From Patescibacteria group bacterium (GTDB lineage Bacteria > Patescibacteriota > Minisyncoccia > UBA6257 > 2-01-FULL-56-20): a stretch of 64,000 nt of DNA. Positions 33,961 through 48,863 of the stretch are shown piece after piece. The notes under the pieces are model-generated. The model did no database searches and had not been told where the DNA came from. It was given only the letters and a program-made list of their open reading frames with translations. The position numbers and the translations under genes are program-made. Each line of letters starts with the position of its first letter. The stretch's first letter is position 1. Location: assembly GCA_018971305.1 (NCBI GenBank), contig JAGXBC010000002.1, forward strand, positions 80,046 to 144,045. Direction: 5' to 3'.

Positions 33961-34032
33961 GCGCGCTTAGCTCAGTGGTAGAGCGTCACATTGACATTGT
34001 GAAGGCCGGAGGTCCGATCCCTCCAGCGCGCA
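33961..34032 (+). tRNA. tRNA-Val (anticodon GAC)
   Basis: Acceptor GCGCGCT/AGCGCGC, D-arm TAGCTCAGTGGTAGAGCG, anticodon loop TTGACAT, T-loop TCCGATC-like. Confidence 0.8.
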
Positions 34033-34135
34033 CACTCCAGTGATAGGTGTTTCAAGACCGTAAGATATGAGGTTCCTGGGCGTCCTTGAGCCTTGACCCT
34101 CTAGTACACTGAAACTCTATCACATGAAAATACCG

Positions 34136-34169
34136 CGACGAAATCGTCGCGGTATTTTCATCTCGGGCT
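34136..34169. terminator. Bidirectional intrinsic terminator: perfect palindrome GAAAATACCGCGACGA-AA-TCGTCGCGGTATTTTC flanked by A-run and T-run
   Basis: 16-bp stem; ends 12 nt before the stop of the minus-strand recombinase gene. Confidence 0.7.
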
Positions 34170-34180
34170 TTTCGTTCCGG

Positions 34181-35521
34181 CTACGATGTTTCCTGCGGCA
34201 TCAAGCTGATCACTCTATCTTTGAGCATCAATCGGCTCTTGAGATTTGATAGCAGTTCGCGCTTCTCCGTAATCGTGCCTTCCGTCAGGATATATATGGC
34301 GTAGGATTTGGCATCGAATATCTCCGGCTCAGCATTCTGTTCACGACTTTTGCCCAAGGCAACCCTCCGGAACTTGTTGTATCGCGTAATTTCGTCTTTG
34401 AATTTTTGCTTCACACCTAGCTCGTTCATATCAAGCGTGTCGAGCATCGCCACGATCTGTTCGATGATTTCCTCCTCTTTGATGTACCCGCATTGACAGT
34501 TCACGTCGCGCTTCTTCGTGCAGCCGTAGTAGACGTACCGATGGGTATTCCCGTTCTTCTGGTATTTCCATTTTTCCGATGCTGTGATGCCCGATCCGCA
34601 TAATCCGCACGTTATCAATTTCGTGAAGGCAAACTCTTTGTCGTTTTTTACCTCGCTCCGTTTCAATTGCTCCCGCGCCCGATCATACAGTTCTTTTGTT
34701 ATGAGCGGCGCATGGGCACCGGTATACCATTTCCCCGATCCTTCGGGGAATTCGAACGTGCCGTAGTAAAATGTTTTCTGCAGGATGATGAAGATGTTCC
34801 CGAGCGAGAGGAATTTCCCGTTCACAGTTTTGAACTTGATGTCGTTCTTTAGCCACACATAGAGCCGTCGTCCCGACCACTGCTCATTCGCGACTTTCTC
34901 GAACATCTGGCGGATGATAGGAGCACGGACAGGATCCACGATCACTTGGCACTTTCGATCTTTTCGTTTCTCGTTCAAGTAACCGGTGGGCGCGATACCC
35001 GGCCAGAGGCCTTGTTCGACGCGCGTTCGCAATCCTCGCTTCACATTCTCCGATTTGTTGTCATTCTCGAGTTTCGCTGTCGAGCACAGAATCATCAGCA
35101 TAAACTTCTCGCTTGGATTGTTTGTAAATTTCTGCGAGAAGGTTCTGATTTCCAAAAGTAGCTTCTGATCCATGAGATCGACGAGCGCACCGAGATCGCC
35201 CGCATTTCTTGAAAGGCGATCCGGCGCCCATGTGAGGATGCCTGTAAATTTGCCGGATCGGATATCAAGAACGAGCCCGTTGAAAACCTCTCTTTGCCCT
35301 ACGGCTTTGGCGGAATGGCTTTCCTTTCTGATCTCAGCGATCTCGAGTCCATCGCGTTCCGCGATCTTGATCATCTCCTTGATTTGGCTGTCTATTGAAA
35401 GGACTTGCTGTTCCTCGCTCTCTGTACTCTTTCTTGCATACAGACAGTAGGCGACCTTTACTGGCAGCGGCTGGTTGGTTGAGGTCGCCGCTCCTGCCGA
35501 CCCCTTAGTTTGGTTAGTCAT
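34181..35521 (-). CDS. Large serine recombinase (resolvase/invertase-type catalytic domain + recombinase domain + Zn ribbon)
   Basis: N-terminal catalytic motif YARKSTESEE...SIDSQ (Ser nucleophile), DRLSRN, C-terminal Cys cluster CGLCGSG...C...C; higher GC than surrounding genes by eye. Confidence 0.85.
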   Translation of the reverse strand: MTNQTKGSAGAATSTNQPLPVKVAYCLYARKSTESEEQQVLSIDSQIKEMIKIAERDGLEIAEIRKESHSAKAVGQREVFNGLVLDIRSGKFTGILTWAPDRLSRNAGDLGALVDLMDQKLLLEIRTFSQKFTNNPSEKFMLMILCSTAKLENDNKSENVKRGLRTRVEQGLWPGIAPTGYLNEKRKDRKCQVIVDPVRAPIIRQMFEKVANEQWSGRRLYVWLKNDIKFKTVNGKFLSLGNIFIILQKTFYYGTFEFPEGSGKWYTGAHAPLITKELYDRAREQLKRSEVKNDKEFAFTKLITCGLCGSGITASEKWKYQKNGNTHRYVYYGCTKKRDVNCQCGYIKEEEIIEQIVAMLDTLDMNELGVKQKFKDEITRYNKFRRVALGKSREQNAEPEIFDAKSYAIYILTEGTITEKRELLSNLKSRLMLKDRVISLMPQETS

Positions 35522-35617: not shown

Positions 35618-35637
35618 ATAACCTATGATAACCTATG
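35618..35637 (+). repeat. Tandem direct repeat ATAACCTATG x2 immediately upstream of the hsdM -35 element
   Basis: Direct reading; candidate regulator binding site. Confidence 0.45.
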
Positions 35638-35643
35638 AAGGTA

Positions 35644-35672
35644 TTGACTTTACAAAATAGATCGATTAGAAT
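35644..35672 (+). promoter_or_regulatory. Sigma-70-like promoter TTGACT-17-TAGAAT for the Type I RM operon
   Basis: Near-consensus hexamers with 17-nt spacer; the -10 ends 12 nt before the hsdM ATG. Confidence 0.55.
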
Positions 35673-35684
35673 AGGGTTAACGGT

Positions 35685-37367
35685 ATGCGTAAAGATATAC
35701 AAGCAAAACTCAAGGGAATGCCGGAATTGCTCTCTATCAGCCAGGTAGCTGAGATTTTTAATATTCACCCTGATACTCTCCGGAACTGGGAAAAGGACGG
35801 TATTTTAGTGCCCTTGCGGGCTGGTAAGCGCGGCGATCGCAAATACCGTCCGCAGGACATTCAGGCCATCGTGGACAAGATGGGCAGCAAACTCACCCTG
35901 CCGCAGCTTGAGCAGTTTCTTTGGAAGAGCGCCGATATTCTTCGCGGCAAGATTGATAGTTCCGATTATAAAAAATATATATTCGGACTTCTTTTCTACA
36001 AGCGTATCAGCGACGTATGGGACGAGGAATATAAGCGCGTCATGGAGGAATACAAAGATGAGACTATCGCGCGGGCCGACTACAACCATCGTTTTCAAGT
36101 ACCGCCGGATTGCCGGTGGTCTGTTATTGAGGAACAGGCGGAAAATATCGGTCCGAAGCTTAACGGAATTTTTGATAAGCTCACGAATGCAAACAGCCCT
36201 AAACTGGACAAAATTTTTGATGATCTCGATTTCGCCCATAAAGATAAATTTCCGAACGAAACTACTCAGCGTTTAATAAACCACTTCTCGCAATATAATT
36301 TTGGCGACACTTACATCAACTCCGACCTTCTTGGAGATGCATATGAATATCTCATAAAGCAATTCGCGGCTGATGCCGGAAAGAAAGGTGGGGAGTTTTA
36401 CACCCCGCGCGAAGTTGAGCGTGTCATCATCCAAATTCTTAATCCCCACAAGAAAGACCACATATATGATCCCACGGTTGGGTCCGGTGGTTTTTTGCTC
36501 GAAGCCTACCATCACTTAAAAGAAAAAGAGGGCGAGAAAATTGCTCGCACGCTCTATCTATATGGGCAGGAGATAAATATCAGCACGTTTGCGATTGCCA
36601 AGATCAACATGTTCCTCCATGGACTTGATGCAGCTGATATTCAACGCGGCGATACACTTGCAAATCCCCAATTTCTGAATCCGAACGGAACATTAAAAAC
36701 CTTCGACATCTGCGTGGCAAATCCCCCCTATTCAATCAGTGACTGGGAAAATGAAATGTTCAAAGAACGGTATGGCCGAGTGGAGGGATATGAAATACCG
36801 CCAAAAAGTAATGCTGACTACGCTTTCGTACTCCACATCATTAAGTCCATGAACTCAAACGGCCGAGCTGGTATCGTGTTGCCGCACGGTGTTCTATTCC
36901 GTGCCGGTGCCGAGGGACGCATCCGAGAGCAAATACTCAAAAACGACCTTATTGAGGCGGTGATCGCACTTCCACCCAAGCTTTTCTATGGCACTGGTAT
37001 TCCGGCGGCCATTCTCATCTTCAATAAAAACAAGTCAGACAGTCACAGGGGAAATGTCCTTATCGTTGACGCCGAGAAGGATTTTTCTGAAGGTAAAAAC
37101 CAGAATTCGCTCCGCGCACAAGACATTCAGAAAATCGTGAAGGCGTATGACAGCTACAGAGATGTCGAGGGCTATGCCCGCGTTGTTAGCCTCAAAGAAG
37201 TCGAGAAGAATGAATATAACCTCAACGTGCACCGATACATAGAAAATGGCGATAAAGAGGAGGAAATAGACGTATCTGTTGTTCGTAAGGAACTTACTGC
37301 GCTCGAGAAGGAACGCGCTGAGGCCGATATAAAAGTCGATGAATTTTTGAATGAGCTTAAATATTGA
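35685..37367 (+). CDS. hsdM: Type I restriction-modification system, methyltransferase subunit HsdM
   Basis: N-terminal HsdM_N, AdoMet motif I DPTVGSGGFL, motif IV VANPPYS. Confidence 0.9.
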   Translation: MRKDIQAKLKGMPELLSISQVAEIFNIHPDTLRNWEKDGILVPLRAGKRGDRKYRPQDIQAIVDKMGSKLTLPQLEQFLWKSADILRGKIDSSDYKKYIFGLLFYKRISDVWDEEYKRVMEEYKDETIARADYNHRFQVPPDCRWSVIEEQAENIGPKLNGIFDKLTNANSPKLDKIFDDLDFAHKDKFPNETTQRLINHFSQYNFGDTYINSDLLGDAYEYLIKQFAADAGKKGGEFYTPREVERVIIQILNPHKKDHIYDPTVGSGGFLLEAYHHLKEKEGEKIARTLYLYGQEINISTFAIAKINMFLHGLDAADIQRGDTLANPQFLNPNGTLKTFDICVANPPYSISDWENEMFKERYGRVEGYEIPPKSNADYAFVLHIIKSMNSNGRAGIVLPHGVLFRAGAEGRIREQILKNDLIEAVIALPPKLFYGTGIPAAILIFNKNKSDSHRGNVLIVDAEKDFSEGKNQNSLRAQDIQKIVKAYDSYRDVEGYARVVSLKEVEKNEYNLNVHRYIENGDKEEEIDVSVVRKELTALEKERAEADIKVDEFLNELKY

Positions 37368-37368
37368 T

Positions 37369-38508
37369 ATGGAAACAGCGCAGAGGATAATTCCGAAAGA
37401 ATGGAGTATAAAAAAGGTTGAAGACCTTTTTGAAATAGGCCGCGGAAGAGTTATTAGTAAAAAAGAGATTCAACAAAACCCGGGACCATTCCCAGTATAC
37501 TCTTCTCAGACTTCAAACGGTGGGGAGTTCGGGAAAATAGGAACCTATGATTTTGAGGGGGAATATTTAACATGGACTACTGACGGCATTTATGCTGGGG
37601 CAGTATTTTATCGGAACGGTAAGTTTAACTGTACAAACGTTTGTGGAACCTTAAAACCAAGAGGGCATATTGATGCTCGATTTTTCTCTTACCTGCTGCC
37701 GTTGTACGCAGGGCGGCATGTCGTAAGAACCGCTAATCCAAAATTGATGAACAATGTCATGGCAAGGGTTTCAATACCAGTCCCGCCAATTAAGGAACAG
37801 AAGAAGATTTCAGAAATTTTAGTGGCGGTTGATCGGATAATTCGAGGCACGGACGAGATTATCGCCGTTACGGGGAAACTTAAGCGAGGGCTAATGCAGC
37901 ATTTTTTTGCCAAAAGCGAATGGAATAGAAAAAAGATTGCTGATATTGCAGAAGTTGTCACCGGTGGTACCCCAAAAACATCGGTCCCAGAATATTGGGA
38001 TGGTTCAATCCGATGGATGTCATCCGGCGAGGTTAATCTAAGACGGGTCAGGGATACGGAAAAAATGATCACACAGAAAGGATTTGATAATTCTAACGCG
38101 CGAATGTTACCTCTTGGGACGGTAATGGTTGCGTTGGCTGGTCAGGGGAAAACTCGAGGGAAGGTAGCAATATTAGAAATTGAGACTACGTGCAACCAAT
38201 CTCTTGCCGGGATTATTCCGAACGCGAATCTTTTATCGAATGAATTTCTCTTTTACAACCTCGAATATCGTTACCAAGAACTGAGAGATATTAGCGGCGG
38301 CGAAGGTCGCGCAGGATTAAATCTAAAACTGATCAAAGAGTTTGTGGTTCCAGTCCCGCCACTACAGGAGCAGAAAAAGATTGCAACAGCCCTGACGTCA
38401 ATCGACAAAAAGATTTCAATCAACCAGAAATTAAAAGCCGAGCTTAATCTTCTCAAAAAAGGTCTCATGCAAGATCTTTTGAGCGGAAAAGTACGGGTAA
38501 CCATCTAA
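37369..38508 (+). CDS. hsdS: Type I restriction-modification system, specificity subunit HsdS (two TRDs)
   Basis: Two target-recognition domains separated by the conserved central repeat; ATG at 37369 sits 1 nt after the hsdM stop (translational coupling). Confidence 0.8.
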   Translation: METAQRIIPKEWSIKKVEDLFEIGRGRVISKKEIQQNPGPFPVYSSQTSNGGEFGKIGTYDFEGEYLTWTTDGIYAGAVFYRNGKFNCTNVCGTLKPRGHIDARFFSYLLPLYAGRHVVRTANPKLMNNVMARVSIPVPPIKEQKKISEILVAVDRIIRGTDEIIAVTGKLKRGLMQHFFAKSEWNRKKIADIAEVVTGGTPKTSVPEYWDGSIRWMSSGEVNLRRVRDTEKMITQKGFDNSNARMLPLGTVMVALAGQGKTRGKVAILEIETTCNQSLAGIIPNANLLSNEFLFYNLEYRYQELRDISGGEGRAGLNLKLIKEFVVPVPPLQEQKKIATALTSIDKKISINQKLKAELNLLKKGLMQDLLSGKVRVTI

Positions 38509-38512
38509 AGAT

Positions 38513-39859
38513 ATGAAAGATAACGGCATCATAGAAAAAATATATGACATCGCGACTAGCCATTTCCACAAATGGTATGGTCTTCTTTCCGCGCTTCTTT
38601 TAGAGGCCATTGTCCTGCTTTTCGTTTATGGATTGGTGCCGAAAGGAGAAGTTCCTTTTGGATGGTATGTCATGGGGATGTCTGTCGTAGCAATTATTAT
38701 ATTGGCCGGCTGGGCGTTTTACGTTTGGCATTATCCAAAACGATCGAAGGATCGACTTGGAGTTGCGATTGCAGTTCAAATCGAAAACTCTGAAGACGCA
38801 AAGTTTTTTAAAAAGGACTTCCTTACCCCATTTAAGAGCAAAATTCATGAGTTGGATTTGCCATTTGATGTCTTAGTACTTAGAAACCACCAGTCGGAGA
38901 CAATTGAGACGATTGAAGATGCCAGGCATGTTTTAAAGAAGACGCGGGCGCATTTCTGCATTTGGGGTTCGATAAAAAAGAGGAGTGGCGCTCCCGCCGG
39001 AGAAAAATATCTATTTTCACTTCGTGGCATCGTTATACACCGGCCGATACAAGAGGTTCAAAAAGTGCTTCTTCGCAAAGAGTTCGATGCGCTTTTGCCC
39101 AATACTGTAATTTTTGAGGAAAACTTGGAGTTTCAGGCTTTTGAGTTCAGGGCAAACCAAGCTGTTACTGCCCTCGACTATATTACCGGACGAGCTGCTC
39201 TTTTGTCCGGCGATTTCAATACCGCAATTCGTTTACATGAATCTTTGCTTAAAGCCATAGAAAGCGGTCAATCTTTTCCGATCAGTGAGGACGCCCTTAA
39301 GAAACTGCTTTCCCTCGAATACGACCAGAAGGCTGGCTTTGAATTTTTTAACCCCCCTGCCGCAGGTACATATCAGGAAAGTATACGGAAATCGCTTCAA
39401 TACGATCAGAATAATTACGGTGCGCTTCTGAAGAGGGCAATCGTTGAATTTAATAACGGTAACGGTGATGCGCGCATCGCCATGAATACAATCAAGGAAG
39501 CTAAAAATCACGCAGGCGGTGGCTACCACTGGTTATACAGCAAGGCATTTTTACACTTCTGGCTTGAAGAATATAATGATGCACTCCAGTGCTGTGAAAA
39601 ATTGAAGGAAAAAAGTTATGGCGGCGAAGAAATTACCGTGGCGGAAGTAATCCTTTTTAACGAGAACCTACTAAAGACTTACGATAAACCGCAATTATAT
39701 TATTGGCTTGGCTTTGTAAGTATTGTGAAAAATAAAAATCTTTCTATAGCTGATAAATACTTTCAGCAATTTCTGGAACATGCGAATGATTCTACGAAAG
39801 ATCTTAAAACACGCGCCGAGAGTTATCTCTCGAGCATCAAAAAGGAAATCGGCTACTAA
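38513..39859 (+). CDS. Unknown 448-aa protein embedded between hsdS and hsdR: 2 N-terminal TM helices + cytoplasmic alpha/beta segment + C-terminal alpha-helical (TPR-like) repeats
   Basis: Starts 4 nt after the hsdS stop and ends 1 nt before the hsdR ATG; TM segments LLSALLLEAIVLLFVYGLV and WYVMGMSVVAIIILAGWAFYVW; no P-loop and no Rx4-6H HEPN motif seen. Confidence 0.6.
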   Translation: MKDNGIIEKIYDIATSHFHKWYGLLSALLLEAIVLLFVYGLVPKGEVPFGWYVMGMSVVAIIILAGWAFYVWHYPKRSKDRLGVAIAVQIENSEDAKFFKKDFLTPFKSKIHELDLPFDVLVLRNHQSETIETIEDARHVLKKTRAHFCIWGSIKKRSGAPAGEKYLFSLRGIVIHRPIQEVQKVLLRKEFDALLPNTVIFEENLEFQAFEFRANQAVTALDYITGRAALLSGDFNTAIRLHESLLKAIESGQSFPISEDALKKLLSLEYDQKAGFEFFNPPAAGTYQESIRKSLQYDQNNYGALLKRAIVEFNNGNGDARIAMNTIKEAKNHAGGGYHWLYSKAFLHFWLEEYNDALQCCEKLKEKSYGGEEITVAEVILFNENLLKTYDKPQLYYWLGFVSIVKNKNLSIADKYFQQFLEHANDSTKDLKTRAESYLSSIKKEIGY

Positions 39860-39860
39860 T

Positions 39861-42773
39861 ATGAAATTCAACGAACAACATACAATTGAAAATCACATCA
39901 TCAAGTTTCTCAAAGAGGAGCTTGGTTATGAATACATCAAACCACAGGAATTTGCGAAGCTGCGGGAATTTGAGAATGAGTATGTAATCGTTTCGTTACT
40001 TACTGCGGCCGTAAAGAAAATCAATGGAATTACCGATGAAACAGAAGCGCAAGCGGTGGTGCGCGAGATCAAAAAACTCGACTCGAATGAGGCATTTTTA
40101 AATGTCCTTCGAAACGGGGTTAACCTGAAGGACCCCGAAACCGGAAAGATGCGCGACTATTTTGTTGTTGATTATGGCAAACCCGAGGATAACCACTTCG
40201 TTGTTACGAACCAGTTTTATTTCGAGGGCAATTCAGAAAATATTCGCCCGGATGTGATGGTATTCCTAAACGGTTTGCCAGTGGTTGATATTGAGGCCAA
40301 GAGCCCAACTGTCTCAAGTAGCATTGATTACTCCAATGCCGTAGGTCAGATAAAACGATATGAGCGCAATGCATTTAAGCTTTTCTGGTCGAACTGTTTC
40401 AATATTGCTTCCGATGGCCTGAAGACCGTATACGGCGCTACCTACGCTCCGGCGGAATACTTCTTGCAGTGGCGAGAGGAAGAATTGGAGAAAAAATATG
40501 GCGAAGAGCTCGAGGTGACCCTCGCCGCACTTCTCTCGCATGATCGCCTGCTGGATATTATTGGGAACTTCATTCTCTTTGAGAAAGAGCAGGAAGGAGC
40601 CGTGAAGAAAATTACCCGTTACATGCAGTATCGGGCAACGAATAAGATTATTGAACGCGTCCAAAAAGGAGAAACGAAACGCGGCCTCATTTGGCATACA
40701 CAGGGGTCGGGCAAATCTTTTACGATGTTTTTCACTGCGTGGAAGTTGCGGTTTGACAAGAAACTCAAAAATCCGAAGGTTTTTGTATTAGTGGATAGGA
40801 TTGATCTTGATGACCAGCTCTATAACACGTTTCTCAATTGTGGCGGACAAAATGTAGTCCGGGTAGAGTCGCGGCGCGATCTTGAACGCAAAATCCAATC
40901 TCCGGAGCGTGGTATTTTCATTTCTACGATTCAAAAGTTTTCCGAGTTGGGAGATGAAGTAAAGAACCTCGATGAAAACATTATCGTGCTTTCGGATGAG
41001 GCGCACCGGGATAATGAAGGCATCTCGGCGATTAACCTACGCAGCGCCATGACGAACGCCTTCTTCTTCGGCTTTACTGGTACGCCGATTGATCGGGTAA
41101 CGCTCAACACGCACCGCAACTTCGGCGAGGAGGGAGAGCGCTATCTTGATTACTATTCTATCCAGCAAGCCATTGATGATGGCGCGACGTTGCCGGTTAC
41201 TTACGAAGCACGACTTTCTAAATTCTTTATTGACGAAGAAGAACTCGATAAACAGTTTGACGAGCTTACTGTGGGTTTGAATGAAAAAGAGAAAGACCGA
41301 ATTTCAAAGAAATATGGCAAGAAAGAAGCGATCATAAAGCTCGATAGGCGCATGGAGGCGATTGCTCGGGATATCGAGGAGCATTTCAAACTCTATGTTG
41401 AACCAGCTGGCTTCAAGGCGCAGATTGTTTGCTATGACCGCGAGGCAACTGCGAAGTATAAAAAACTGCTTGATCAGCTGGTCCCCAAAAATTGGTCCGA
41501 GGTCATCTACTCTCCCGGCGATGCTAACACCGATCCGGAAGAATTACGGACATATAATACGACGAAGGCGAAGCGTGAGAAGCTCATTAACGAGTTCAAG
41601 GATCCTAATAGCCCTCTGAAGTTCTTGCTCGTTTGCGACATGCTTTTGACTGGCTTTGATGCGCCAGTCGAGCAAGTGATGTATCTCGATAAACCACTTT
41701 GGGATCACAATTTGCTGCAAGCAATAGCACGTACAAACCGTATTTACCCGAATAAGGGAGCTGGCAAGATTATTGATTATTACGGCATTACCCGGAGTCT
41801 TTACAAGGCGTTGAACTTCGACGAGAGCATCGTGGATTCCGCGATGATTAATATCGACAAACTTAAGGAAGAATTCGGTGAGGTTTTGGGTGAGCTTAAG
41901 AACCTTTTTGTCGGTATCAATATCGAAGATCCATCCATTGAAAATCTTCGCCGCTGTCTCAAGATCTTTGCGGACAATATCGAAAAGCAGAAGTTCTTCC
42001 AAGAGAAATACGCACGTCTTAAACTCCTCTTTGAAGTCCTGGCACCGGACCCGTTCTTAAAAAAGCACATTCGCGCTTTCGAATGGTTCACAAGCGTATT
42101 CATCGCTTTCGAGAAAGAATATGGCATGAAGGAGTCCGATGCAGAGTTACTCGCGAAATATGGCGAAAAGGTAAAACAGCTTATCCAGCAACGGGTTGAC
42201 TACGAGGGCATCACCAAGAACTTCCGCGAGCTTAACGTGAACGATCTTTACGTGATGGAGCGGCTCAATAAGATGGATGACGATGAAAAGGCGCTCAATC
42301 TGGAGAAGATGTTGAAGCAGGAAATTTCGATCAACGTAGATACGAATCCGGCCTACAAGAAATTCAGCGAGCGGCTCTTGGCGATACGAAAGGAATTCGA
42401 ACAGCACCAGATTGACCTTGCCGAGCGCATTAAACGCTACCAAGAGCTTTTGTCGGATATAAAAAAGAAAGGAGACGAGGCGAAGGAGCTCGGTTTCACG
42501 CTCAAGGAATATGGCCTATTCGTTATTTCGGAGGAATTTATCGTCGACAGCGATAAAGCCGCAGTGCATGAGTTCATCAAGGAAATGACTGGCCGACTGG
42601 AAGAAATGCTTGACGAAGGTTGGCAGGAATCCTCCAAGCGAGAAGAATTTTTAAAGGAAGCCAAGAGGATCATTCAGGAGCTTGTGCTCAAAGAATACAA
42701 AGGGAAGATAAAGGTCAACGACTTCCACAAGTACTTGAATCGGCTGATTGATATCGTAATTAAGAAATTCTGA
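39861..42773 (+). CDS. hsdR: Type I restriction enzyme, restriction subunit HsdR
   Basis: N-terminal nuclease region (ENHIIKFLKEELGYEYI ... DVMVFLNGLPVVDIEAK = PD-(D/E)xK), helicase motif I HTQGSGKS, motif II DEAH-like LSDEAHR, long C-terminal region; start at the ATG at 39861. Confidence 0.9.
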   Translation: MKFNEQHTIENHIIKFLKEELGYEYIKPQEFAKLREFENEYVIVSLLTAAVKKINGITDETEAQAVVREIKKLDSNEAFLNVLRNGVNLKDPETGKMRDYFVVDYGKPEDNHFVVTNQFYFEGNSENIRPDVMVFLNGLPVVDIEAKSPTVSSSIDYSNAVGQIKRYERNAFKLFWSNCFNIASDGLKTVYGATYAPAEYFLQWREEELEKKYGEELEVTLAALLSHDRLLDIIGNFILFEKEQEGAVKKITRYMQYRATNKIIERVQKGETKRGLIWHTQGSGKSFTMFFTAWKLRFDKKLKNPKVFVLVDRIDLDDQLYNTFLNCGGQNVVRVESRRDLERKIQSPERGIFISTIQKFSELGDEVKNLDENIIVLSDEAHRDNEGISAINLRSAMTNAFFFGFTGTPIDRVTLNTHRNFGEEGERYLDYYSIQQAIDDGATLPVTYEARLSKFFIDEEELDKQFDELTVGLNEKEKDRISKKYGKKEAIIKLDRRMEAIARDIEEHFKLYVEPAGFKAQIVCYDREATAKYKKLLDQLVPKNWSEVIYSPGDANTDPEELRTYNTTKAKREKLINEFKDPNSPLKFLLVCDMLLTGFDAPVEQVMYLDKPLWDHNLLQAIARTNRIYPNKGAGKIIDYYGITRSLYKALNFDESIVDSAMINIDKLKEEFGEVLGELKNLFVGINIEDPSIENLRRCLKIFADNIEKQKFFQEKYARLKLLFEVLAPDPFLKKHIRAFEWFTSVFIAFEKEYGMKESDAELLAKYGEKVKQLIQQRVDYEGITKNFRELNVNDLYVMERLNKMDDDEKALNLEKMLKQEISINVDTNPAYKKFSERLLAIRKEFEQHQIDLAERIKRYQELLSDIKKKGDEAKELGFTLKEYGLFVISEEFIVDSDKAAVHEFIKEMTGRLEEMLDEGWQESSKREEFLKEAKRIIQELVLKEYKGKIKVNDFHKYLNRLIDIVIKKF

Positions 42774-42774
42774 A

Positions 42775-43344
42775 ATGCAAAAACAGATCGCATTGCAAAA
42801 TAAGAAAGTCGCTTACATCCTCCGAAAAAGCAAACGGGCCCGGAGGATGCGCCTTGCGGTGTATTGCGATGGATCTGTTGTGGTGACGATGCCACACGAT
42901 CTTCAGGAAACTATCGCTGAGCGATTTATTCGAGAAAAAACCGAATGGCTATTTTCAAAGTTGGCGTTTTTCAAGCAATTTGAGGGCAAGCCGGTTGCAC
43001 GATATAGTCATGACGATTATCTCAAGTATAAGGATGGCGCTCTTGCGCTTGTCCAAGATAAAGTTAATCACTTCACCAGCCAGCACGGATACCGATATAA
43101 CAAGATCGCGATTAAAAATCAGAAGACGTGCTGGGGCAGCTGCTCCCGAAAAGCCAATCTGAATTTTAACTATAAGATCTTGTTTTTGCCAGAAAACATT
43201 CAGAACTATATCGTTGCACACGAACTGTGCCACCTAAAAGAATTCAATCACTCGAAACAGTTTTGGAAATTAGTGGCAAATGTAATACCGGAATATATGG
43301 AGATTCGTAATCAGCTCAAAAAGAGCGGGGTAAGTTTTTATTAA
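42775..43344 (+). CDS. DUF45/YgjP-like (SprT/WLM-like) zinc metallohydrolase
   Basis: YILRKSKRARRMRLAV..., WGSCS, and HELCHLKEFNHSKQFW (HExxH...NHS) typical of COG1451; begins 1 nt after the hsdR stop. Confidence 0.75.
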   Translation: MQKQIALQNKKVAYILRKSKRARRMRLAVYCDGSVVVTMPHDLQETIAERFIREKTEWLFSKLAFFKQFEGKPVARYSHDDYLKYKDGALALVQDKVNHFTSQHGYRYNKIAIKNQKTCWGSCSRKANLNFNYKILFLPENIQNYIVAHELCHLKEFNHSKQFWKLVANVIPEYMEIRNQLKKSGVSFY

Positions 43345-43376
43345 TCCTACGTGGAAGAAGCTAAATTTCTAAATTC

Positions 43377-45914
43377 ATGGATAGCAGAACCCCATTTATA
43401 AAAGAAGTCGCGAAAACCATCGCGGAAAACCATGCTAAGGGCAGCGAATCTTTTATATTTGGCATCTCCGGCAAATGGGGTGAAGGGAAAACTTACTTTT
43501 TGCACGATCTCAAAAAAGAACTCAAATCTCGTGATAGCTCTTTCGAGATTTTTGACGTAAATGCATGGAAATTCTCTGCTGATAATATTTCTTTCCTTAG
43601 AAATTTCTTAAAAGCTCTCTATCAAAAAAGCGACTTTTGGACAGAAGACGATTTCCGATCATTATATTTTGACACTTCAGAAAGTGGTATTCATTGGAAA
43701 AGATTTGCAACTCTTGTTCTGGTATTGGGCGCTGCTGGCTGGGTCTATTCGCAGCCCGAAGTTTCTAGCTTTATAAACGGCCTCGCTCCGCAATGGAAGA
43801 TCATATCGTCGTTAATTTTGATCCCAACATTGCTTGCTGCTGTGGGTAAAATCGTGATTATTCAAAAGAGTGATCATGCGATTTCAACACTCGACAAATT
43901 CGATGACCTCTTAAAAAGGATAATCGCGCAGTTTAATATTGAGCAGAAAAAAGTAGTGGTATTTGTTGATGACCTTGATCGAGTAACTCCTGAGGTGGCG
44001 AGGGACGTCTTAGATAATCTCAGAACATTTTTCGACAAAAAGGAGCTTACTTTTGTCGTGACCGGAGATCATACTGTTTTAGAAAGATATCTTGGCAAAG
44101 ATCTTCTCCCGGACGAAGATGTACCGACACAGCTCGAAGAAGGGCGCAGATTCTTAAAAAAGATATTCAACGTTTATTGGCGCTTGCCGCTTCCTATAGA
44201 AAACGAGGTGGCAGTCTTCGTTGAAAACGAGTTTACTAAACGCTCCTCTGCCTTAAACGAAATGCTCACCGAAGAAGAGGATAGAAACAAATTCAAAAAT
44301 TATCTAAAAAAGTATTTTGAAAAAAACTTCCGGCAAATAATTAGATTCTTGGACACCACGCTTTTTAATTTTCAAATCATAAAACAGAAAGTGTCGGATG
44401 GCGACGATACACAAAAGCGATATTTTGAGGAAGTTGCAAAACATCCCTTGCTGATAATACGCATCTTAATGATTCAAGAATTATGTGCGCCTTTATTCGA
44501 AAAAATACTCAATGAGCCACAAATCTTAAGCGATTTAGAATACGCTGTCGATAAAAAGGATTCTGCCAAAGTAAATCAAATTGTGGACGATCATAAAAAA
44601 TATCTTTCTGACGCTCAACAGGGCTTCATAAAGAAATTTCTTTATGAAGAACCACGTTTTTACGAAGGGACGAACCTGACAGTGTCCGATCTTCGTCCGT
44701 TTCTTTTCTTAGCTGCGGATGCTAGCTTTGGTGACCAACGGGGACCGTCTAGTGACGATTTTATGATTATCGTTGATGGCGGAGATCCAGCGCAGGTCAA
44801 AAGTTCACTGGTGTCTATCGGCGAAACTAAAGCAAGGGCAGGAGCCAAAGCATTTATTACCCAATTAACTAGTCTGGCAGAACCAGCAAAAACCAATCAC
44901 ATTAAAACCTTAGTCATTGCGCTCGGGGATTTACCACCAGAATATGTGATGCACAAGATTTTTGCCGAAGAGCTGGCATCTGTGGATCTAAGCTCTACAA
45001 ATACTACCGCATCGGCAAATAAGTTAGGAGCATTTAATGCGTTTTGGGCATGGTTAGACATAGTCAAAGATGCAAGTTTACTAGCGTCATATCAAGATAA
45101 ATTTCCCTTTACAAGTGCCTCAGAGATTGATGCTATCAAAATTGATAAAGCCGGAGTATTTACTAGCAGCGTTGCTACGCGTTGGCTTAAAACTTACTAC
45201 TCTCAAGATACCCAGGACGCCGTAAACAAGATGTTGAGTATTTTCCCGAAGCTTGATCTTCCAGAAGTACACAAGCATATGGCGGGAATGGAAGAAGCAT
45301 TAGCAAATGAATTGATACGCGACGCCAATGCAGAATGGAGGGAAAAGCGATTTAGTCTAATAAAGGACTTTACTCCGGAAGGCAAAAAAGTGTTACGCCA
45401 AAAAATATTTGAACAAGCCTCAGCGTTAAATAAAGATATTGTACGGTGGGCAATCGGCAAATCCGGTGATCTATGGGAAACAACAGAAGTCGAGACTGCA
45501 GTACTTGAAAAGCTGGAAACGGCTCAAAACTTTAACGATATAGCGACTGCGCTTAGGTTTATCGTTGATAATAAAATTAGCTCACCAGAATTACTCTGGC
45601 CGAAAGTAATTCCTAAACATGCCACGCTATTAATCGATAATTTGCCACAAATGATCAACGAATCGTATCAAGCCATTTCGCCATCAGAAGAATACGCAAG
45701 CCAGATTATGGATCCCCTGATTCAAAAAATAAAGGGGCTCGGTGAGGCGGAGCAAATCCAGTGGCTTGATTATATAAAAAAGCCGAAATGGCTTTGGGCA
45801 AAAATTACTAAAAAACCGTCCGTTAGGAAATTTGCTGCTATCCAAAAATCTACTAACGATCAGCTCAAACAAGCTCTTACCGACTCTTTGGCAAGCTGGG
45901 ATGAATCGGCTTAA
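43377..45914 (+). CDS. KAP family P-loop NTPase (845 aa)
   Basis: Walker A GISGKWGEGKTYFL (KAP GxWGxGKT), two TM helices inserted after it (LVLVLGAAGWVYS / ILIPTLLAAVGKIVII), Walker B VVVFVDDLDR (KAP hhhhDDLDR); long helical C-terminal region. Confidence 0.8.
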   Translation: MDSRTPFIKEVAKTIAENHAKGSESFIFGISGKWGEGKTYFLHDLKKELKSRDSSFEIFDVNAWKFSADNISFLRNFLKALYQKSDFWTEDDFRSLYFDTSESGIHWKRFATLVLVLGAAGWVYSQPEVSSFINGLAPQWKIISSLILIPTLLAAVGKIVIIQKSDHAISTLDKFDDLLKRIIAQFNIEQKKVVVFVDDLDRVTPEVARDVLDNLRTFFDKKELTFVVTGDHTVLERYLGKDLLPDEDVPTQLEEGRRFLKKIFNVYWRLPLPIENEVAVFVENEFTKRSSALNEMLTEEEDRNKFKNYLKKYFEKNFRQIIRFLDTTLFNFQIIKQKVSDGDDTQKRYFEEVAKHPLLIIRILMIQELCAPLFEKILNEPQILSDLEYAVDKKDSAKVNQIVDDHKKYLSDAQQGFIKKFLYEEPRFYEGTNLTVSDLRPFLFLAADASFGDQRGPSSDDFMIIVDGGDPAQVKSSLVSIGETKARAGAKAFITQLTSLAEPAKTNHIKTLVIALGDLPPEYVMHKIFAEELASVDLSSTNTTASANKLGAFNAFWAWLDIVKDASLLASYQDKFPFTSASEIDAIKIDKAGVFTSSVATRWLKTYYSQDTQDAVNKMLSIFPKLDLPEVHKHMAGMEEALANELIRDANAEWREKRFSLIKDFTPEGKKVLRQKIFEQASALNKDIVRWAIGKSGDLWETTEVETAVLEKLETAQNFNDIATALRFIVDNKISSPELLWPKVIPKHATLLIDNLPQMINESYQAISPSEEYASQIMDPLIQKIKGLGEAEQIQWLDYIKKPKWLWAKITKKPSVRKFAAIQKSTNDQLKQALTDSLASWDESA

Positions 45915-45966: not shown

Positions 45967-46701
45967 TTATCCTAATACTGCTCGCTCCCTTCTTTTAAGT
46001 TCCTTCATGATAAAACCCGAATTAATCGGCTTCCTGAAAAGAAAACATTGGGGTCGGTTTTTCTCGGGAACAACATAATCGACAAGACTTTTCCCATGAG
46101 GTAAACCGCAGTGCACTTGGTGAACGAATTCTTTTCCATACTTCGGATCATTAAAATCGCAGTAATACAAAATTTCGTCGGTACTCAACTGAAAACAATG
46201 AGAGTTGCCGTGTCCGAAAAAGTAAACTTCTTTGATGTTTTGGTTGCTCATTATTTTCTCTACATCGGAAATATTTGAGTCGGGATAGAATGAAAAATTT
46301 TGCTGCTTAGCCTCTAAGAGTTTTACCAAACCCTTTATTTCGCGCTTGAGAAAAATTGGCTTGACCCACCCTTCAAGAGTGAACCAATTCGAGTGTCCGA
46401 GAACGACGACCGCTTCGGTGGGCGCGTTTTGACTAAATTTCTTCAAATATTTCCTTACAAAAATATTTTGGAGTGGCCAAAGCACCAAAAATATTGGAGA
46501 GAAGAAAAACATCAGAAATTCTTGGCCAAAATAAACGATTCCCACGATCAGCACGAAGAACAGATGAACAAAGAGAACCGGCAACAGGTGACCCGTTCTT
46601 ATCCATGCATAAACGAGCACGCTCACGTAGGCGAAAAATAAGGGCAGCTTAAATTCAAGCCTTTGAATTGTCTTTCCGAACTTGCTTTCCGGTAATAGCA
46701 T
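45967..46701 (-). CDS. Hypothetical membrane protein (3 N-terminal TM helices + C-terminal globular domain with GHSNW / GHGNSH His-rich motifs)
   Basis: Convergent with the KAP NTPase; no confident family assignment (not a canonical GxSxG hydrolase). Confidence 0.45.
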   Translation of the reverse strand: MLLPESKFGKTIQRLEFKLPLFFAYVSVLVYAWIRTGHLLPVLFVHLFFVLIVGIVYFGQEFLMFFFSPIFLVLWPLQNIFVRKYLKKFSQNAPTEAVVVLGHSNWFTLEGWVKPIFLKREIKGLVKLLEAKQQNFSFYPDSNISDVEKIMSNQNIKEVYFFGHGNSHCFQLSTDEILYYCDFNDPKYGKEFVHQVHCGLPHGKSLVDYVVPEKNRPQCFLFRKPINSGFIMKELKRRERAVLG

Positions 46702-46835
46702 GTATGTTTCAGGAGCATAATTCAGTGTTTGTAAAAAATCAATCTATTGAACTGGGAAGGTTTTTGACCATCTTTTTTCACCCACCGTGATGCAGCGGGT
46801 TTTTTGTGTTTCGCAAAAATAAATCAACAACTACC

Positions 46836-48732: not shown

Positions 48733-48798
48733 TAAACCTGTCCAGATTTTGGACAGGTAGGTCAAACCTGTCCACTTTCTGGACGTCCAGAAAGTGGA
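48733..48798. repeat. Paired palindromes directly 3' of the recombinase: CCTGTCCA-gatt-TTGGACAGG (48736-48756) and a 30-bp perfect palindrome GTCCACTTTCTGGAC|GTCCAGAAAGTGGAC (48769-48798), each preceded by the direct repeat AAACCTGTCCA
   Basis: Direct reading; no T-runs, so not classic terminators; candidate recombinase or DNA-binding sites. Confidence 0.55.
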
Positions 48799-48863
48799 CA
48801 CTACAAAAGAAACTTATATACAAAATAATTATAGCAATAAAAATTGTGGAAAACTCGGAAATA

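What the first reader, a model, noticed from the sequence alone, without database searches (positions are those of the whole stretch)
35618..45914. Type I RM operon expanded to six co-directional genes: hsdM-hsdS-[2TM/alpha-repeat unknown]-hsdR-DUF45 metallohydrolase-KAP NTPase
A single near-consensus promoter (TTGACT-17-TAGAAT, preceded by a tandem ATAACCTATG repeat) sits upstream of hsdM, and the intergenic gaps are 1, 4, 1, 1 and 32 nt, so all six genes look co-transcribed and partly translationally coupled. Extra genes embedded in Type I RM loci are classic hiding places for abortive-infection or restriction-associated effectors; PrrC in the E. coli prr locus sits between hsdS and hsdR. 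DUF45/YgjP genes do recur next to hsdR in many genomes. A KAP P-loop NTPase (membrane-inserted NTPase with an interrupted P-loop domain) plus a 2TM protein as integral parts of an RM operon is, to my knowledge, not a described system. The whole block sits in a recombinase-bounded island next to tRNA-Val.
Basis: partly seen in the sequence, partly recalled or inferred. Interest (0 to 1): 0.78.

Follow-up and report, generated by a model that had tools for sequence, protein, structure and literature searches.

The report
Restriction island with swappable add-on genes
A mobile Type I restriction-modification gene cluster in an uncultivated Patescibacteria genome carries three extra genes: only the unknown membrane-anchored repeat protein between hsdS and hsdR recurs with restriction genes in relatives, while the protease is a commonplace partner and the KAP NTPase is an interchangeable stand-alone defence gene, so this is a known kind of arrangement, not a new six-part system.

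Summary
Six co-directional, tightly packed genes lie at 35685-45914: MerR-HsdM, HsdS, X, HsdR, YgjP and KAP. They sit behind a conserved promoter, on a serine-recombinase island next to tRNA-Val.

The interpretation as one six-gene system is only partly supported.
- **X** (2 TM helices, a small alpha/beta domain, then TPR) is the real signal. In 14 of 22 independent related contexts it is embedded in Type I RM operons, and in 13 of these it abuts hsdS. This holds across three divergent RM families.
- **YgjP** directly after hsdR also occurs in archaeal and bacterial plasmids, so that pairing is ordinary.
- **KAP** is not a conserved partner: 2 of 23 related contexts are Type I-linked. The closest sister island has an OLD/AriA-like nuclease in its slot, and sequence similarity ends exactly at the YgjP stop codon.

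Both underlying ideas are already published. KAP NTPases fused to unknown C-terminal regions are experimentally shown single-gene antiphage proteins (PMC13552941). Defence genes embedded in Type I RM loci are an established concept (PrrC, TgvAB, PADLOC PDCs).

What remains new is the X family: uncharacterised, with about 1,200 clusters at 50% identity. Its function is unknown. My best guess is a membrane-anchored, RM-linked second-line module.

The parts
33961..34033 (+). tRNA-Val(GAC), at the left edge of the island
   Evidence: ARAGORN and Rfam. Related recombinase islands abut other tRNAs (Ser, Asn, His, Gln).
34181..35521 (-). Large serine recombinase (446 aa), divergent from hsdM
   Evidence: Resolvase, Recombinase and Zn_ribbon_recom domains. 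Homologues at 54-62% identity occupy the same position in L038, L047 and L054, and sit next to KAP in L014 and L015.
35618..35637 (+). Tandem ATAACCTATG x2, a candidate operator abutting the -35 box
   Evidence: Read directly. Conserved in six loci; in L011 it takes the form of an inverted repeat.
35644..35672 (+). Sigma-70-like promoter TTGACT-17-TAGAAT, 12 nt upstream of the hsdM ATG
   Evidence: Consensus scan gives 10 of 12 matches. The -35 hexamer is invariant in all 6 related loci. Function is not shown.
35685..37367 (+). hsdM with an N-terminal MerR-type HTH (aa 15-64)
   Evidence: Pfam N6_Mtase 2.5e-110, HsdM_N and MerR_1. TIGR00497 is above its cut-off.
37369..38508 (+). hsdS with two target-recognition domains
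   Evidence: Methylase_S in two stretches, 8e-59. The internal 36-nt repeat D1 is typical of HsdS. GC3 is 0.41.
38513..39859 (+). X: 448-aa protein with a 2-TM hairpin, an alpha/beta domain of about 125 aa, and a TPR-like domain of about 245 aa
39861..42773 (+). hsdR
   Evidence: HSDR_N, SWI2_SNF2/ResIII, T1R_D3-like and T1RH-like_C domains. TIGR00348 scores 556 bits. PADLOC REase_I 1.8e-142.
42775..43344 (+). YgjP-like (DUF45 / SprT-like) zinc metallopeptidase
   Evidence: PF01863 7.5e-42. HELCH motif. Found directly after hsdR in L011, L047, L050, L054 and L061, and in Haloquadratum, Salinibacter and Bartonella plasmids.
43377..45914 (+). KAP-family P-loop NTPase with a TM insert and an uncharacterised C-terminal region of about 500 aa; it occupies a variable cargo slot
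   Evidence: PF07693 3.2e-34. PADLOC hits: PifA 3.8e-21, PDC-S20 2e-16, QatA 9e-15. GC3 is 0.385 against 0.50-0.55 for hsdM, hsdR and YgjP. Similarity to sister loci ends at the YgjP stop codon.
45967..46701 (-). Unknown 244-aa membrane protein, convergent with KAP
   Evidence: No family hits. Absent from all related loci. Its membership of the island module is uncertain.
46806..48695 (+). Second large serine recombinase (629 aa), an inverted paralogue of the first
   Evidence: Pfam domains. Inverted repeats I1 and I2 are about 72% complementary. The gene to its right (48864-50351, -) is syntenic with the right flank of L047.

Best explanation
**What it is.** The locus is a modular, mobile defence island of a Patescibacteria bacterium, not a six-subunit machine. 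It has four layers.

1. **Core.** An intact Type I RM system (HsdM, HsdS, HsdR). It is probably transcribed from a conserved promoter. The ATAACCTATG repeat next to that promoter may be bound by the MerR-type HTH fused to HsdM, giving autoregulation; this is an inference.
2. **YgjP.** A zinc metallopeptidase translationally coupled to hsdR. This pairing is widespread in bacteria and archaea. By inference from its SprT/WLM-like fold family, I think it proteolytically controls or clears HsdR or stalled restriction complexes.
3. **X.** A lineage-specific accessory gene that travels with hsdS. Both termini are predicted to be cytoplasmic. A two-helix hairpin anchors a cytoplasmic alpha/beta-plus-TPR protein-binding module to the membrane.
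4. **KAP.** An NTPase with a long C-terminal domain, sitting in a hypervariable 3' cargo slot. It is an independent single-gene antiphage module of the class shown experimentally in 2026.

**Most likely role of X.** I think X is a second-line, RM-associated module, analogous in logic to PrrC. The TPR domain would bind a protein partner, either the RM complex or a phage product. The membrane hairpin would provide localisation or effector output. This role is inferred, at about 35% among the readings of X.

**Shown versus inferred.** The anatomy, domain identities, neighbourhood statistics and modular swapping are shown. All biochemical roles of X, YgjP and KAP in this organism are inferred.
For: **Intact RM core.** Family scores are above curated cut-offs.

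**Promoter and operator.** Both are conserved in 6 loci whose flanking sequence has diverged.

**X is linked to RM.**
- 14 of 22 independent contexts are embedded in Type I RM strings, and 13 of those abut hsdS.
- The order hsdS-X-hsdR is seen in L006, L011, L035-37, L038, L047, L050, L054 and L061.
- The order hsdM-X-hsdS or X-hsdS is seen in L040, L042, L045 and L062.
- This holds across RM families that share only 26-30% HsdM and HsdR identity.

**X is a swappable module.**
- X is 78-79% identical where HsdR is 28% identical (L006, L035). X is 47% identical where HsdR is 81% identical (L050).
- Three further contexts lie on serine-recombinase islands outside the RM string: L001, L051-53 and L008.

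**YgjP after hsdR is general.** It follows hsdR in Haloquadratum PL100, Salinibacter pSR56 and a Bartonella plasmid.

**KAP is modular.**
- Only 2 of 23 contexts are Type I-linked.
- The slot after YgjP holds other cargo in sister loci: an OLD/AriA-like ATPase-TOPRIM plus a HARE-HTH protein in L047, PDDEXK and AAA proteins in L061, a 184-aa ORF with a hydrophobic N-terminus in L050, and nothing in L011.
- Alignment similarity stops at the YgjP stop codon.
- GC3 is 0.385 for KAP against 0.50-0.55 for hsdM, hsdR and YgjP.
- Elsewhere KAP homologues sit among other defence genes: SduA_C, SIR2_2, HEPN_AbiU2, ParB-MTase.

**Literature.**
- KAP NTPases with unknown C-terminal regions protect against phage, and protection requires Walker B and the C-terminal region (PMC13552941).
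- Genes embedded in Type I RM loci are frequently defence systems (bioRxiv 10.1101/2024.01.29.577857; TgvAB, PMC11411939; PrrC, PMC12707154).
Against: - No experiment or transcript data exist for this locus. The tight spacing would also fit functional coupling of all six genes.
- KAP does follow hsdR directly in one other Type I family (L013/L057, 4-nt gap). A different KAP sits between hsdM and hsdS in L050. Some KAP-RM affinity therefore exists.
- All X-linked loci were found by searching with X. The fraction of Patescibacterial Type I loci that carry X is unknown.
- X has no recognisable catalytic or pore-forming domain.
- Five contexts of X show no RM or mobile-element link (L002, L004, L039, L041, L046). 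A housekeeping role is therefore not excluded.
- X is more conserved than typical defence genes: mean column identity is 58%.
Confidence: 0.7

Rival explanations
1. All six genes form one integrated, conserved defence system, in which the 2TM protein and the KAP NTPase are functional parts of an expanded Type I RM machine.
For: - Gaps of 1-32 nt behind a single conserved upstream promoter.
- KAP directly follows hsdR in L013/L057.
- A KAP-like gene is embedded in L050.
Against: - No other locus among about 45 related contexts has this six-gene set.
- Sister islands L047, L038, L011, L054, L050 and L061 keep the core with X (and YgjP wherever the contig reaches that far) but have different or no cargo in the KAP slot.
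- KAP homologues are mostly found away from RM loci.
- KAP proteins of this architecture work alone in heterologous hosts.
Confidence: 0.07
2. X is a structural or regulatory subunit of the Type I enzyme in these bacteria, not a defence module in its own right. For example, it might tether HsdR or M2S to the membrane near the site of DNA entry. Alternatively it might sequester HsdR to delay restriction after the island is transferred.
For: - X is constantly adjacent to hsdS and is translationally coupled inside the operon in 13 contexts, across three RM families.
- Its TPR domain is a protein-binding scaffold.
- Its bulk is predicted to be cytoplasmic, with a positively charged stretch after TM2.
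- X is highly conserved.
Against: - X occurs without any Type I genes within 8-10 kb in 5 to 8 contexts.
- X does not co-vary with HsdR or HsdM.
- Type I loci in related genomes work without an embedded X (L013, L001, L053).
- Its position varies between S-X-R and M-X-S.
Confidence: 0.2
3. X is an ordinary housekeeping membrane protein of Patescibacteria. Its gene merely lies at, or is carried along with, a recombination hot spot next to hsdS. It has no role in defence.
For: - Five contexts lie among housekeeping genes.
- The family is large, about 1,213 representatives at 50% identity.
- There is no hit in PADLOC or in phage libraries.
Against: - 17 of 22 contexts are on RM operons or recombinase islands.
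- X is inserted between translationally coupled hsd genes in three different RM families.
- X identities are discordant with host RM identities, which implies repeated horizontal exchange.
Confidence: 0.1

Closest known systems
EcoprrI / PrrC locus of E. coli (hsdM-hsdS-prrC-hsdR)
   Same: An extra gene is embedded inside a Type I RM operon. In the window, and in most related loci, it lies exactly between hsdS and hsdR. The logic of a latent second-line module riding on an RM system is the reading I favour for X (PMC12707154).
   Different: PrrC is an ATPase-anticodon nuclease. X has no NTPase or nuclease domain and gives no PADLOC or Pfam hit. X is membrane-anchored with a TPR domain. It also occurs upstream of hsdS and away from RM loci. 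Functional coupling to the RM enzyme is untested.
Defence genes embedded in multi-gene immune systems: 'guilt-by-embedding' HECs and PDCs (Payne et al. 2024), TgvAB in the V. cholerae VPI-2 Type I RM, and Campylobacter Rlo genes
   Same: The architecture is the same: a variable set of accessory genes is inserted between hsd genes. In the related loci these include SduA (Shedu), SoFic, PDC-S45-like trypsin, Schlafen/AlbA_2, Bro-N and PDC-S20-like KAP. The concept is established.
   Different: The X family is not among PADLOC models. It seems confined to uncultivated lineages, with no match in 72,556 plasmids or in IMG/VR. X is far more constant in these loci than the other embedded genes.
KAP P-loop NTPase antiphage proteins (EF_KAP and metagenomic KAPs, PLoS Biol 2026; PifA of the F plasmid; QatA; PADLOC PDC-S20)
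   Same: An N-terminal KAP NTPase with a TM segment inserted between Walker A and Walker B, followed by a long C-terminal region with no known domain. The gene lies next to serine recombinases.
   Different: The matches cover the NTPase domain only: PifA profile positions 26-324 of 720, and QatA at 56 bits against an NCBIfam cut-off of 600. The C-terminal region of about 500 aa is specific to a Patescibacteria-centred family of more than 228 clusters. No QatBCD partners are present. The recombinases here are large ones, not small ones.
hsdR-YgjP (DUF45 / 'SprT family zinc-dependent metalloprotease') gene pairs
   Same: YgjP lies immediately downstream of hsdR and is coupled to it, as in Haloquadratum walsbyi PL100, Salinibacter ruber pSR56 and a Bartonella plasmid.
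   Different: Nothing notable. The window protein is a short (189 aa) member with an intact HExxH motif. The role of the pairing is unknown in every system.

Membership tests
Type I restriction-modification system | HsdM: N6-adenine methyltransferase with an HsdM_N domain | tested here: met
   PF02384 2.5e-110 and PF12161 2.6e-27. TIGR00497 scores 273.9 bits against a cut-off of 242.75. The NPPY and DPTVGSGGF motifs are visible in the translation.
Type I restriction-modification system | HsdS with two target-recognition domains | tested here: met
   PF01420 in two stretches, 8.1e-59. PADLOC Specificity_I 2.7e-59.
Type I restriction-modification system | HsdR: N-terminal PD-(D/E)xK nuclease plus an SF2 translocase | tested here: met
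   HSDR_N 4.9e-34 and SWI2_SNF2 1.9e-71. TIGR00348 scores 555.9 bits against a cut-off of 284.55. The DEAH and D...EAK motifs are visible in the translation.
Type I restriction-modification system | Sequence-specific methylation and ATP-dependent restriction activity | not testable with these tools
   Needs methylome data or biochemistry.
KAP family P-loop NTPase (PF07693) | The KAP NTPase domain scores above the Pfam gathering threshold and has Walker A and Walker B motifs | tested here: met
   119 bits against a cut-off of 20. GKWGEGKT at residue 32 and VVFVDD at 194.
KAP family P-loop NTPase (PF07693) | Transmembrane segment(s) inserted within the P-loop domain | tested here: met
   A hydrophobic helix at 142-160, and a weaker one around 108-125, lie between Walker A and Walker B.
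PifA (F-plasmid phage T7 exclusion) | Full-length similarity to PifA | tested here: not met
   The PADLOC PifA hit (3.8e-21) covers only profile positions 26-324 of 720, which is the NTPase domain.
Qat system (QatABCD) | QatA equivalog score, with QatB, QatC and QatD encoded nearby | tested here: not met
   NF041923 scores 56.4 bits against a cut-off of 600. No QueC-like or TatD-like neighbours are present.
PADLOC candidate PDC-S20 | Match to the PDC-S20 profile over its full length | tested here: inconclusive
   2e-16 over profile positions 28-377 of 464. The window protein is 845 aa and has an extra C-terminal region. I could not confirm the definition of PDC-S20 from the paper's supplements.
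KAP-NTPase fusion antiphage proteins (PMC13552941) | A TM-containing KAP NTPase fused to a C-terminal region of unknown function, acting as a single gene | tested here: inconclusive
   The architecture matches. Homologues occur alone in many contexts. Antiphage activity and sequence relatedness to EF_KAP were not tested.
YgjP-like / DUF45 metallopeptidase (PF01863) | The domain scores above threshold and has an HExxH zinc motif | tested here: met
   144.1 bits against a cut-off of 26. HELCH at residue 149.
PrrC-type RM-embedded anticodon nuclease (tested for X) | Gene embedded in a Type I RM operon between hsdS and hsdR | tested here: met
   True in the window and in 9 related contexts.
PrrC-type RM-embedded anticodon nuclease (tested for X) | An N-terminal ABC-type ATPase and a C-terminal anticodon-nuclease domain | tested here: not met
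   X gives no PADLOC, Pfam or NCBIfam hit. The model shows 2 TM helices, an alpha/beta domain and TPR repeats.
TPR-repeat proteins (X, residues about 203-446) | TPR superhelical fold | tested here: met
Large serine recombinase | Resolvase catalytic domain plus Recombinase domain plus zinc ribbon | tested here: met
   Both flanking genes have all three domains.

The most novel reading that the evidence does not exclude
X founds an undescribed class of Type I RM partner that travels with hsdS: a hairpin-anchored cytoplasmic TPR protein. It would act either as a guardian, sensing inhibition of the restriction complex and responding at the membrane in the way PrrC does but with a membrane output. 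Or it would tether the restriction enzyme at the membrane of ultra-small Patescibacteria, where incoming DNA enters. The wider family, about 1,200 clusters at 50% identity, would then be a large hidden group of RM accessory proteins.
Probability: 0.3. Interest if true: 0.7.

Novelty: new member of a known kind. Interest (0 to 1): 0.4.

Why it matters
**As a whole, the locus is ordinary.** It is a textbook example of something already recognised. Type I RM operons act as scaffolds into which other defence genes are inserted and swapped, and the whole unit is carried by a recombinase island. This adds little beyond showing that the pattern holds in Patescibacteria.

**The useful product is gene X.**
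- It is a sizeable family with no annotation.
- Its association with hsdS is specific and repeated, across divergent Type I families.
- These lineages have small genomes and few known defence systems.

If X modulates or backs up restriction, it would be a new type of RM accessory factor. It would also be a handle on how these episymbionts handle foreign DNA.

**A testable side observation.** The conserved repeat next to the promoter, together with the HTH fused to HsdM, suggests how a mobile Type I system could regulate itself.

Tried and rejected
- **AlphaFold database fold search.** The afdb50 library was not available.
- **PDB sequence searches.** Profiles of X and of KAP gave nothing significant.
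- **Family libraries.** Pfam, PADLOC, NCBIfam and PHROGs gave no hit for X or for the 244-aa gene.
- **Plasmid and viral collections.** tblastn of X, of a distant X relative and of KAP against plasmids found no match. X is absent from IMG/VR.
- **Word-index searches.** Both word-index searches for X, with the single sequence and with its profile, returned the same 50 proteins. Only the exhaustive HMM search revealed the wider family. That library has no context or taxonomy, and cluster look-ups gave no organism names.
- **Literature on DUF45 / YgjP and Type I RM.** 'DUF45' matched DUF450 and similar names. Makarova 2011 and Aravind 2004 are not held. I tested the linkage directly on plasmid records instead.
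- **PDC-S20 definition.** It could not be found in the supplements of Payne et al..
- **L056.** This 27% partial hit lies on a high-GC contig with no RM-related ORFs. I discarded it as spurious.
- **Rejected idea: X as the integration target of the recombinase**, suggested by X abutting the recombinase in L001 and L053. I rejected it because X sits inside translationally coupled hsd strings in 14 other contexts.

Full report
**1. Observation**

The window comes from a Patescibacteria metagenome-assembled genome. Exact-match proteins are named 'MAG... KGJ89_04290 / KGJ89_04305 [Patescibacteria group bacterium]' and lie on a 297-kb contig.

Six co-directional ORFs occupy 35685-45914. With starts chosen by homology, the gaps are 1, 4, 1, 1 and 32 nt.

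Family assignments are unambiguous:

| Gene | Coordinates | Assignment |
|---|---|---|
| hsdM | 35685-37367 | HsdM with an N-terminal MerR-type HTH |
| hsdS | 37369-38508 | HsdS with two target-recognition domains |
| X | 38513-39859 | 448-aa protein with no family hit; two TM helices at 24-42 and 53-71 |
| hsdR | 39861-42773 | HsdR |
| YgjP | 42775-43344 | YgjP-like zinc metallopeptidase (HELCH motif) |
| KAP | 43377-45914 | 845-aa KAP NTPase; Walker A at 32, Walker B at 194, separated by a TM segment at 142-160 |

The promoter TTGACT-17-TAGAAT (35644-35672) and the tandem ATAACCTATG repeat (35618-35637) are present. Consensus promoter matches are no more frequent here than in shuffled sequence (26 against 21.2 +/- 4.4). 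This site and the repeat are nevertheless conserved in six related loci whose surrounding sequence has diverged, which argues that they are functional.

tRNA-Val (33961-34033) and two inverted large serine recombinases flank the block. Co-transcription is plausible but cannot be shown from sequence.

**2. Gene X**

*Close relatives.* A word-index search found 50 clusters at 44-100% identity. All hits whose source names an organism are from Patescibacteria.

*Structure.* A 33-sequence alignment shows strong conservation, with 58% mean column identity and motifs such as VVHxPI and YITGRAALLSGD. AlphaFold2 on this alignment gave a confident model (pLDDT 87, pTM 0.77). The model contains:
- an N-terminal helix;
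- a two-helix membrane hairpin;
- a five-stranded alpha/beta domain (about residues 82-201);
- an all-alpha domain (203-446).

*Wider family.* An exhaustive profile search found 1,213 representatives at 50% identity with E below 1e-3, and 410 with E below 1e-30. Most of the 150 listed are 440-500 aa long. The distant members I inspected keep the same architecture. X is absent from 72,556 plasmids and from IMG/VR.

**3. Neighbourhoods of X**

I collected contexts by exact look-up and by a metagenome scan. I annotated them with phmmer and BLASTP using the window's proteins and with Pfam and PADLOC. After removing duplicates there are 22 contexts besides the window.

| Category | Contexts | Loci |
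|---|---|---|
| Inside a Type I RM gene string, order hsdS-X-hsdR (hsdS-X only in truncated L055) | 9 | L006, L011, L035-37, L038, L047, L050, L054, L055, L061 |
| Inside a Type I RM gene string, order hsdM-X-hsdS or X-hsdS | 4 | L040, L042, L045, L062 |
| Inside a Type I RM gene string, order hsdM-DUF3800-X | 1 | L043 |
| On serine-recombinase islands but outside the hsd string | 3 | L001, L051-53, L008 |
| No visible link to RM or mobile elements | 5 | L002, L004, L039, L041, L046 |

In 13 of the 14 embedded cases X directly abuts hsdS.

The host RM systems belong to at least three families. HsdM and HsdR identity to the window ranges from 24-41% (L001, L006, L035-37, L053) to 92% and 89% (L047). 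X identity is discordant with RM identity: it is 78-79% where HsdR is 28%, and 47% where HsdR is 81%.

X is therefore a horizontally exchanged module with a strong and specific affinity for Type I loci, in particular for hsdS. It is neither an obligatory subunit nor a random neighbour. In the window, X and hsdS also share a low GC3 (0.43 and 0.41), compared with 0.51-0.55 for hsdM and hsdR.

**4. YgjP**

In the MerR-HsdM family, YgjP follows hsdR in all five loci that extend far enough: L011, L047, L050, L054 and L061.

I also sampled four plasmid records that encode YgjP homologues. Three have the gene immediately after hsdR, and two of those have another gene embedded between hsdS and hsdR. 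The three are Haloquadratum walsbyi PL100 (an archaeon), Salinibacter ruber pSR56 and a Bartonella plasmid. The hsdR-YgjP pair is thus widespread and ordinary.

**5. KAP**

*Family and contexts.* Full-length relatives (about 850 aa, 30-62% identity) number more than 228 clusters, mostly from Patescibacteria. Among 23 contexts, only two are adjacent to Type I genes:
- L013/L057: HTH-HsdM/S fusion, HsdR, then KAP after a 4-nt gap.
- L030: a gammaproteobacterium.

The contrast with X is significant (Fisher p = 1.5e-4).

*Other neighbours.* Other KAP homologues lie next to the same serine-recombinase family without any RM genes (L014 and L015, recombinases 61-62% identical). Others sit among defence genes such as SduA_C, SIR2_2, HEPN_AbiU2 and ParB-methyltransferase.

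*The KAP slot is variable.* The closest sister island is L047, 77-78% identical in DNA across recombinase-hsdM and hsdS-X-hsdR-YgjP. Where the window has KAP, L047 has a 636-aa OLD/AriA-like ATPase-TOPRIM protein, a 145-aa ORF and a HARE-HTH protein. L061 has PDDEXK and AAA proteins there. L050 has a 184-aa ORF with a hydrophobic N-terminus. L011 has nothing. A multiple alignment shows that similarity among six loci runs to the YgjP stop codon and ends there. KAP has the lowest GC3 of the block, 0.385.

*A second variable slot.* The interval between hsdM and hsdS holds different genes in different loci:
- Bro-N
- SduA (Shedu)
- a PDC-S45-like trypsin
- Schlafen/AlbA_2
- a different 489-aa KAP
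- small ORFs, or nothing

KAP is therefore interchangeable cargo.

**6. Literature**

- PrrC is the classic gene embedded in a Type IC locus (PMC12707154).
- TgvAB is a Type IV system embedded in the V. cholerae Type I operon. That paper also cites the Campylobacter Rlo genes (PMC11411939).
[quoted passage not shown] From these they derived 145 'phage defence candidates', which were added to PADLOC. The window KAP matches PADLOC candidate PDC-S20 (2e-16), as well as PifA (3.8e-21) and QatA.
- A 2026 PLoS Biology paper shows that KAP NTPases with TM helices, fused to C-terminal regions of unknown function, protect against phages as single genes. Protection needs Walker B and the C-terminal region. 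Serine recombinases mark such loci (PMC13552941).

The statement that a KAP NTPase in an RM operon is undescribed therefore no longer holds. I found nothing describing X, within the limits of the held library.

**7. Mechanism**

*Shown:*
- an intact Type I RM core;
- a conserved promoter and repeat;
- a mobile-island setting, with related recombinases sitting next to tRNA-Ser, -Asn, -His and -Gln elsewhere;
- modular exchange of hsdS, X and the cargo slots.

*Inferred:*
- The HTH fused to HsdM binds the repeat next to the promoter and autoregulates the operon.
- YgjP belongs to the SprT/WLM-like zincin group (weak WLM and SprT hits). It may proteolytically control or remove HsdR complexes.
- KAP acts independently as an NTP-dependent antiphage switch.
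- X uses its TPR domain to bind a protein partner at the membrane.

*Readings of X.* Among the possibilities I favour an RM-associated second-line module (about 35%). The alternatives are a tether or regulator of the enzyme (about 20-25%), an unrelated embedded defence gene (about 25%) and a housekeeping protein (about 10%).
- The lack of co-variation with HsdR and the solo copies argue against an obligatory subunit.
- The constant hsdS adjacency across RM families argues against a chance neighbour.

**8. Verdict**

The finding is real but is mostly an instance of a known pattern: an RM operon acting as a scaffold for embedded and appended defence genes on a mobile island.

The novel element is the X family and its hsdS linkage. 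I classify the finding as a new member of a known kind, with interest 0.4.

The most novel reading not excluded is that X is a new kind of Type I RM guardian or membrane tether. I give that a probability of about 0.3, and it would merit an interest of about 0.7 if true.

Noticed in passing
window 35618-35637 and 35685-35880: HsdM carries an N-terminal MerR/HTH_17-type HTH. The tandem ATAACCTATG repeat abutting the -35 box is conserved in six related loci, and in L011 it appears as an inverted repeat (CCTATG..CATAGG). This looks like an autoregulatory operator for a mobile Type I system.
   Followed up: partly
window 35667-35687: Only 12 nt separate the -10 hexamer from the hsdM ATG. If the promoter is real, the mRNA would be nearly leaderless, with no room for a Shine-Dalgarno sequence.
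   Followed up: no
window 39550-39577: The best promoter-like match in the region (TTTACA-16-TATAAT, 11 of 12) lies inside the 3' part of X, about 285 nt upstream of hsdR. It could be a separate hsdR promoter, as in classical Type I loci, or it could be chance.
   Followed up: no
window 45967-46701 (-): A 244-aa predicted membrane protein lies convergent with KAP. It has no hit in Pfam, PADLOC, NCBIfam or PHROGs and no counterpart in any related locus. GxHG and HCG motifs in its C-terminal half hint at a hydrolase, but nothing was established.
   Followed up: no
window 34181-35521 (-) and 46806-48695 (+); L014, L015, L038, L047, L054, L001, L053: The two flanking large serine recombinases are inverted paralogues. 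Homologues at 54-62% identity sit beside tRNA-Ser, -Asn, -His and -Gln in other genomes, carrying either a Type I RM system or a KAP gene. This looks like a family of tRNA-adjacent defence islands in Patescibacteria.
   Followed up: partly
window 48734-48800: A tandem repeat (AAACCTGTCCA...GGAC, two copies) and a perfect 16-nt palindrome lie directly after the second recombinase gene, at the point where synteny with L047 resumes. This may be a terminator or a recombination site.
   Followed up: no
window 34124-34161: A perfect 18-bp hairpin lies between tRNA-Val and the stop codon of the left recombinase gene.
   Followed up: no
L047 14848-18087; L050 1768-3237; L011 6342-8777; L006 7916-8800; L037 895-2370; L062 4802-6142: Sister Type I loci carry a changing set of embedded or appended genes: an OLD/AriA-like ATPase-TOPRIM protein plus a HARE-HTH protein, a second kind of KAP (PDC-S20-like), Bro-N plus SduA (Shedu), a PDC-S45-like trypsin, Schlafen/AlbA_2 with HATPase_c_4, and SoFic.
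   Followed up: partly
X family: The word-index searches saw only 50 relatives of X. The exhaustive HMM search found 1,213 representatives (410 with E below 1e-30) with the same length and architecture. The taxonomy and gene contexts of these distant members are unknown.
   Followed up: partly
window 35685-45914: GC3 is mosaic inside the operon. It is 0.51, 0.55 and 0.50 for hsdM, hsdR and YgjP, against 0.41, 0.43 and 0.385 for hsdS, X and KAP. This is consistent with separate acquisition of the latter three.
   Followed up: partly
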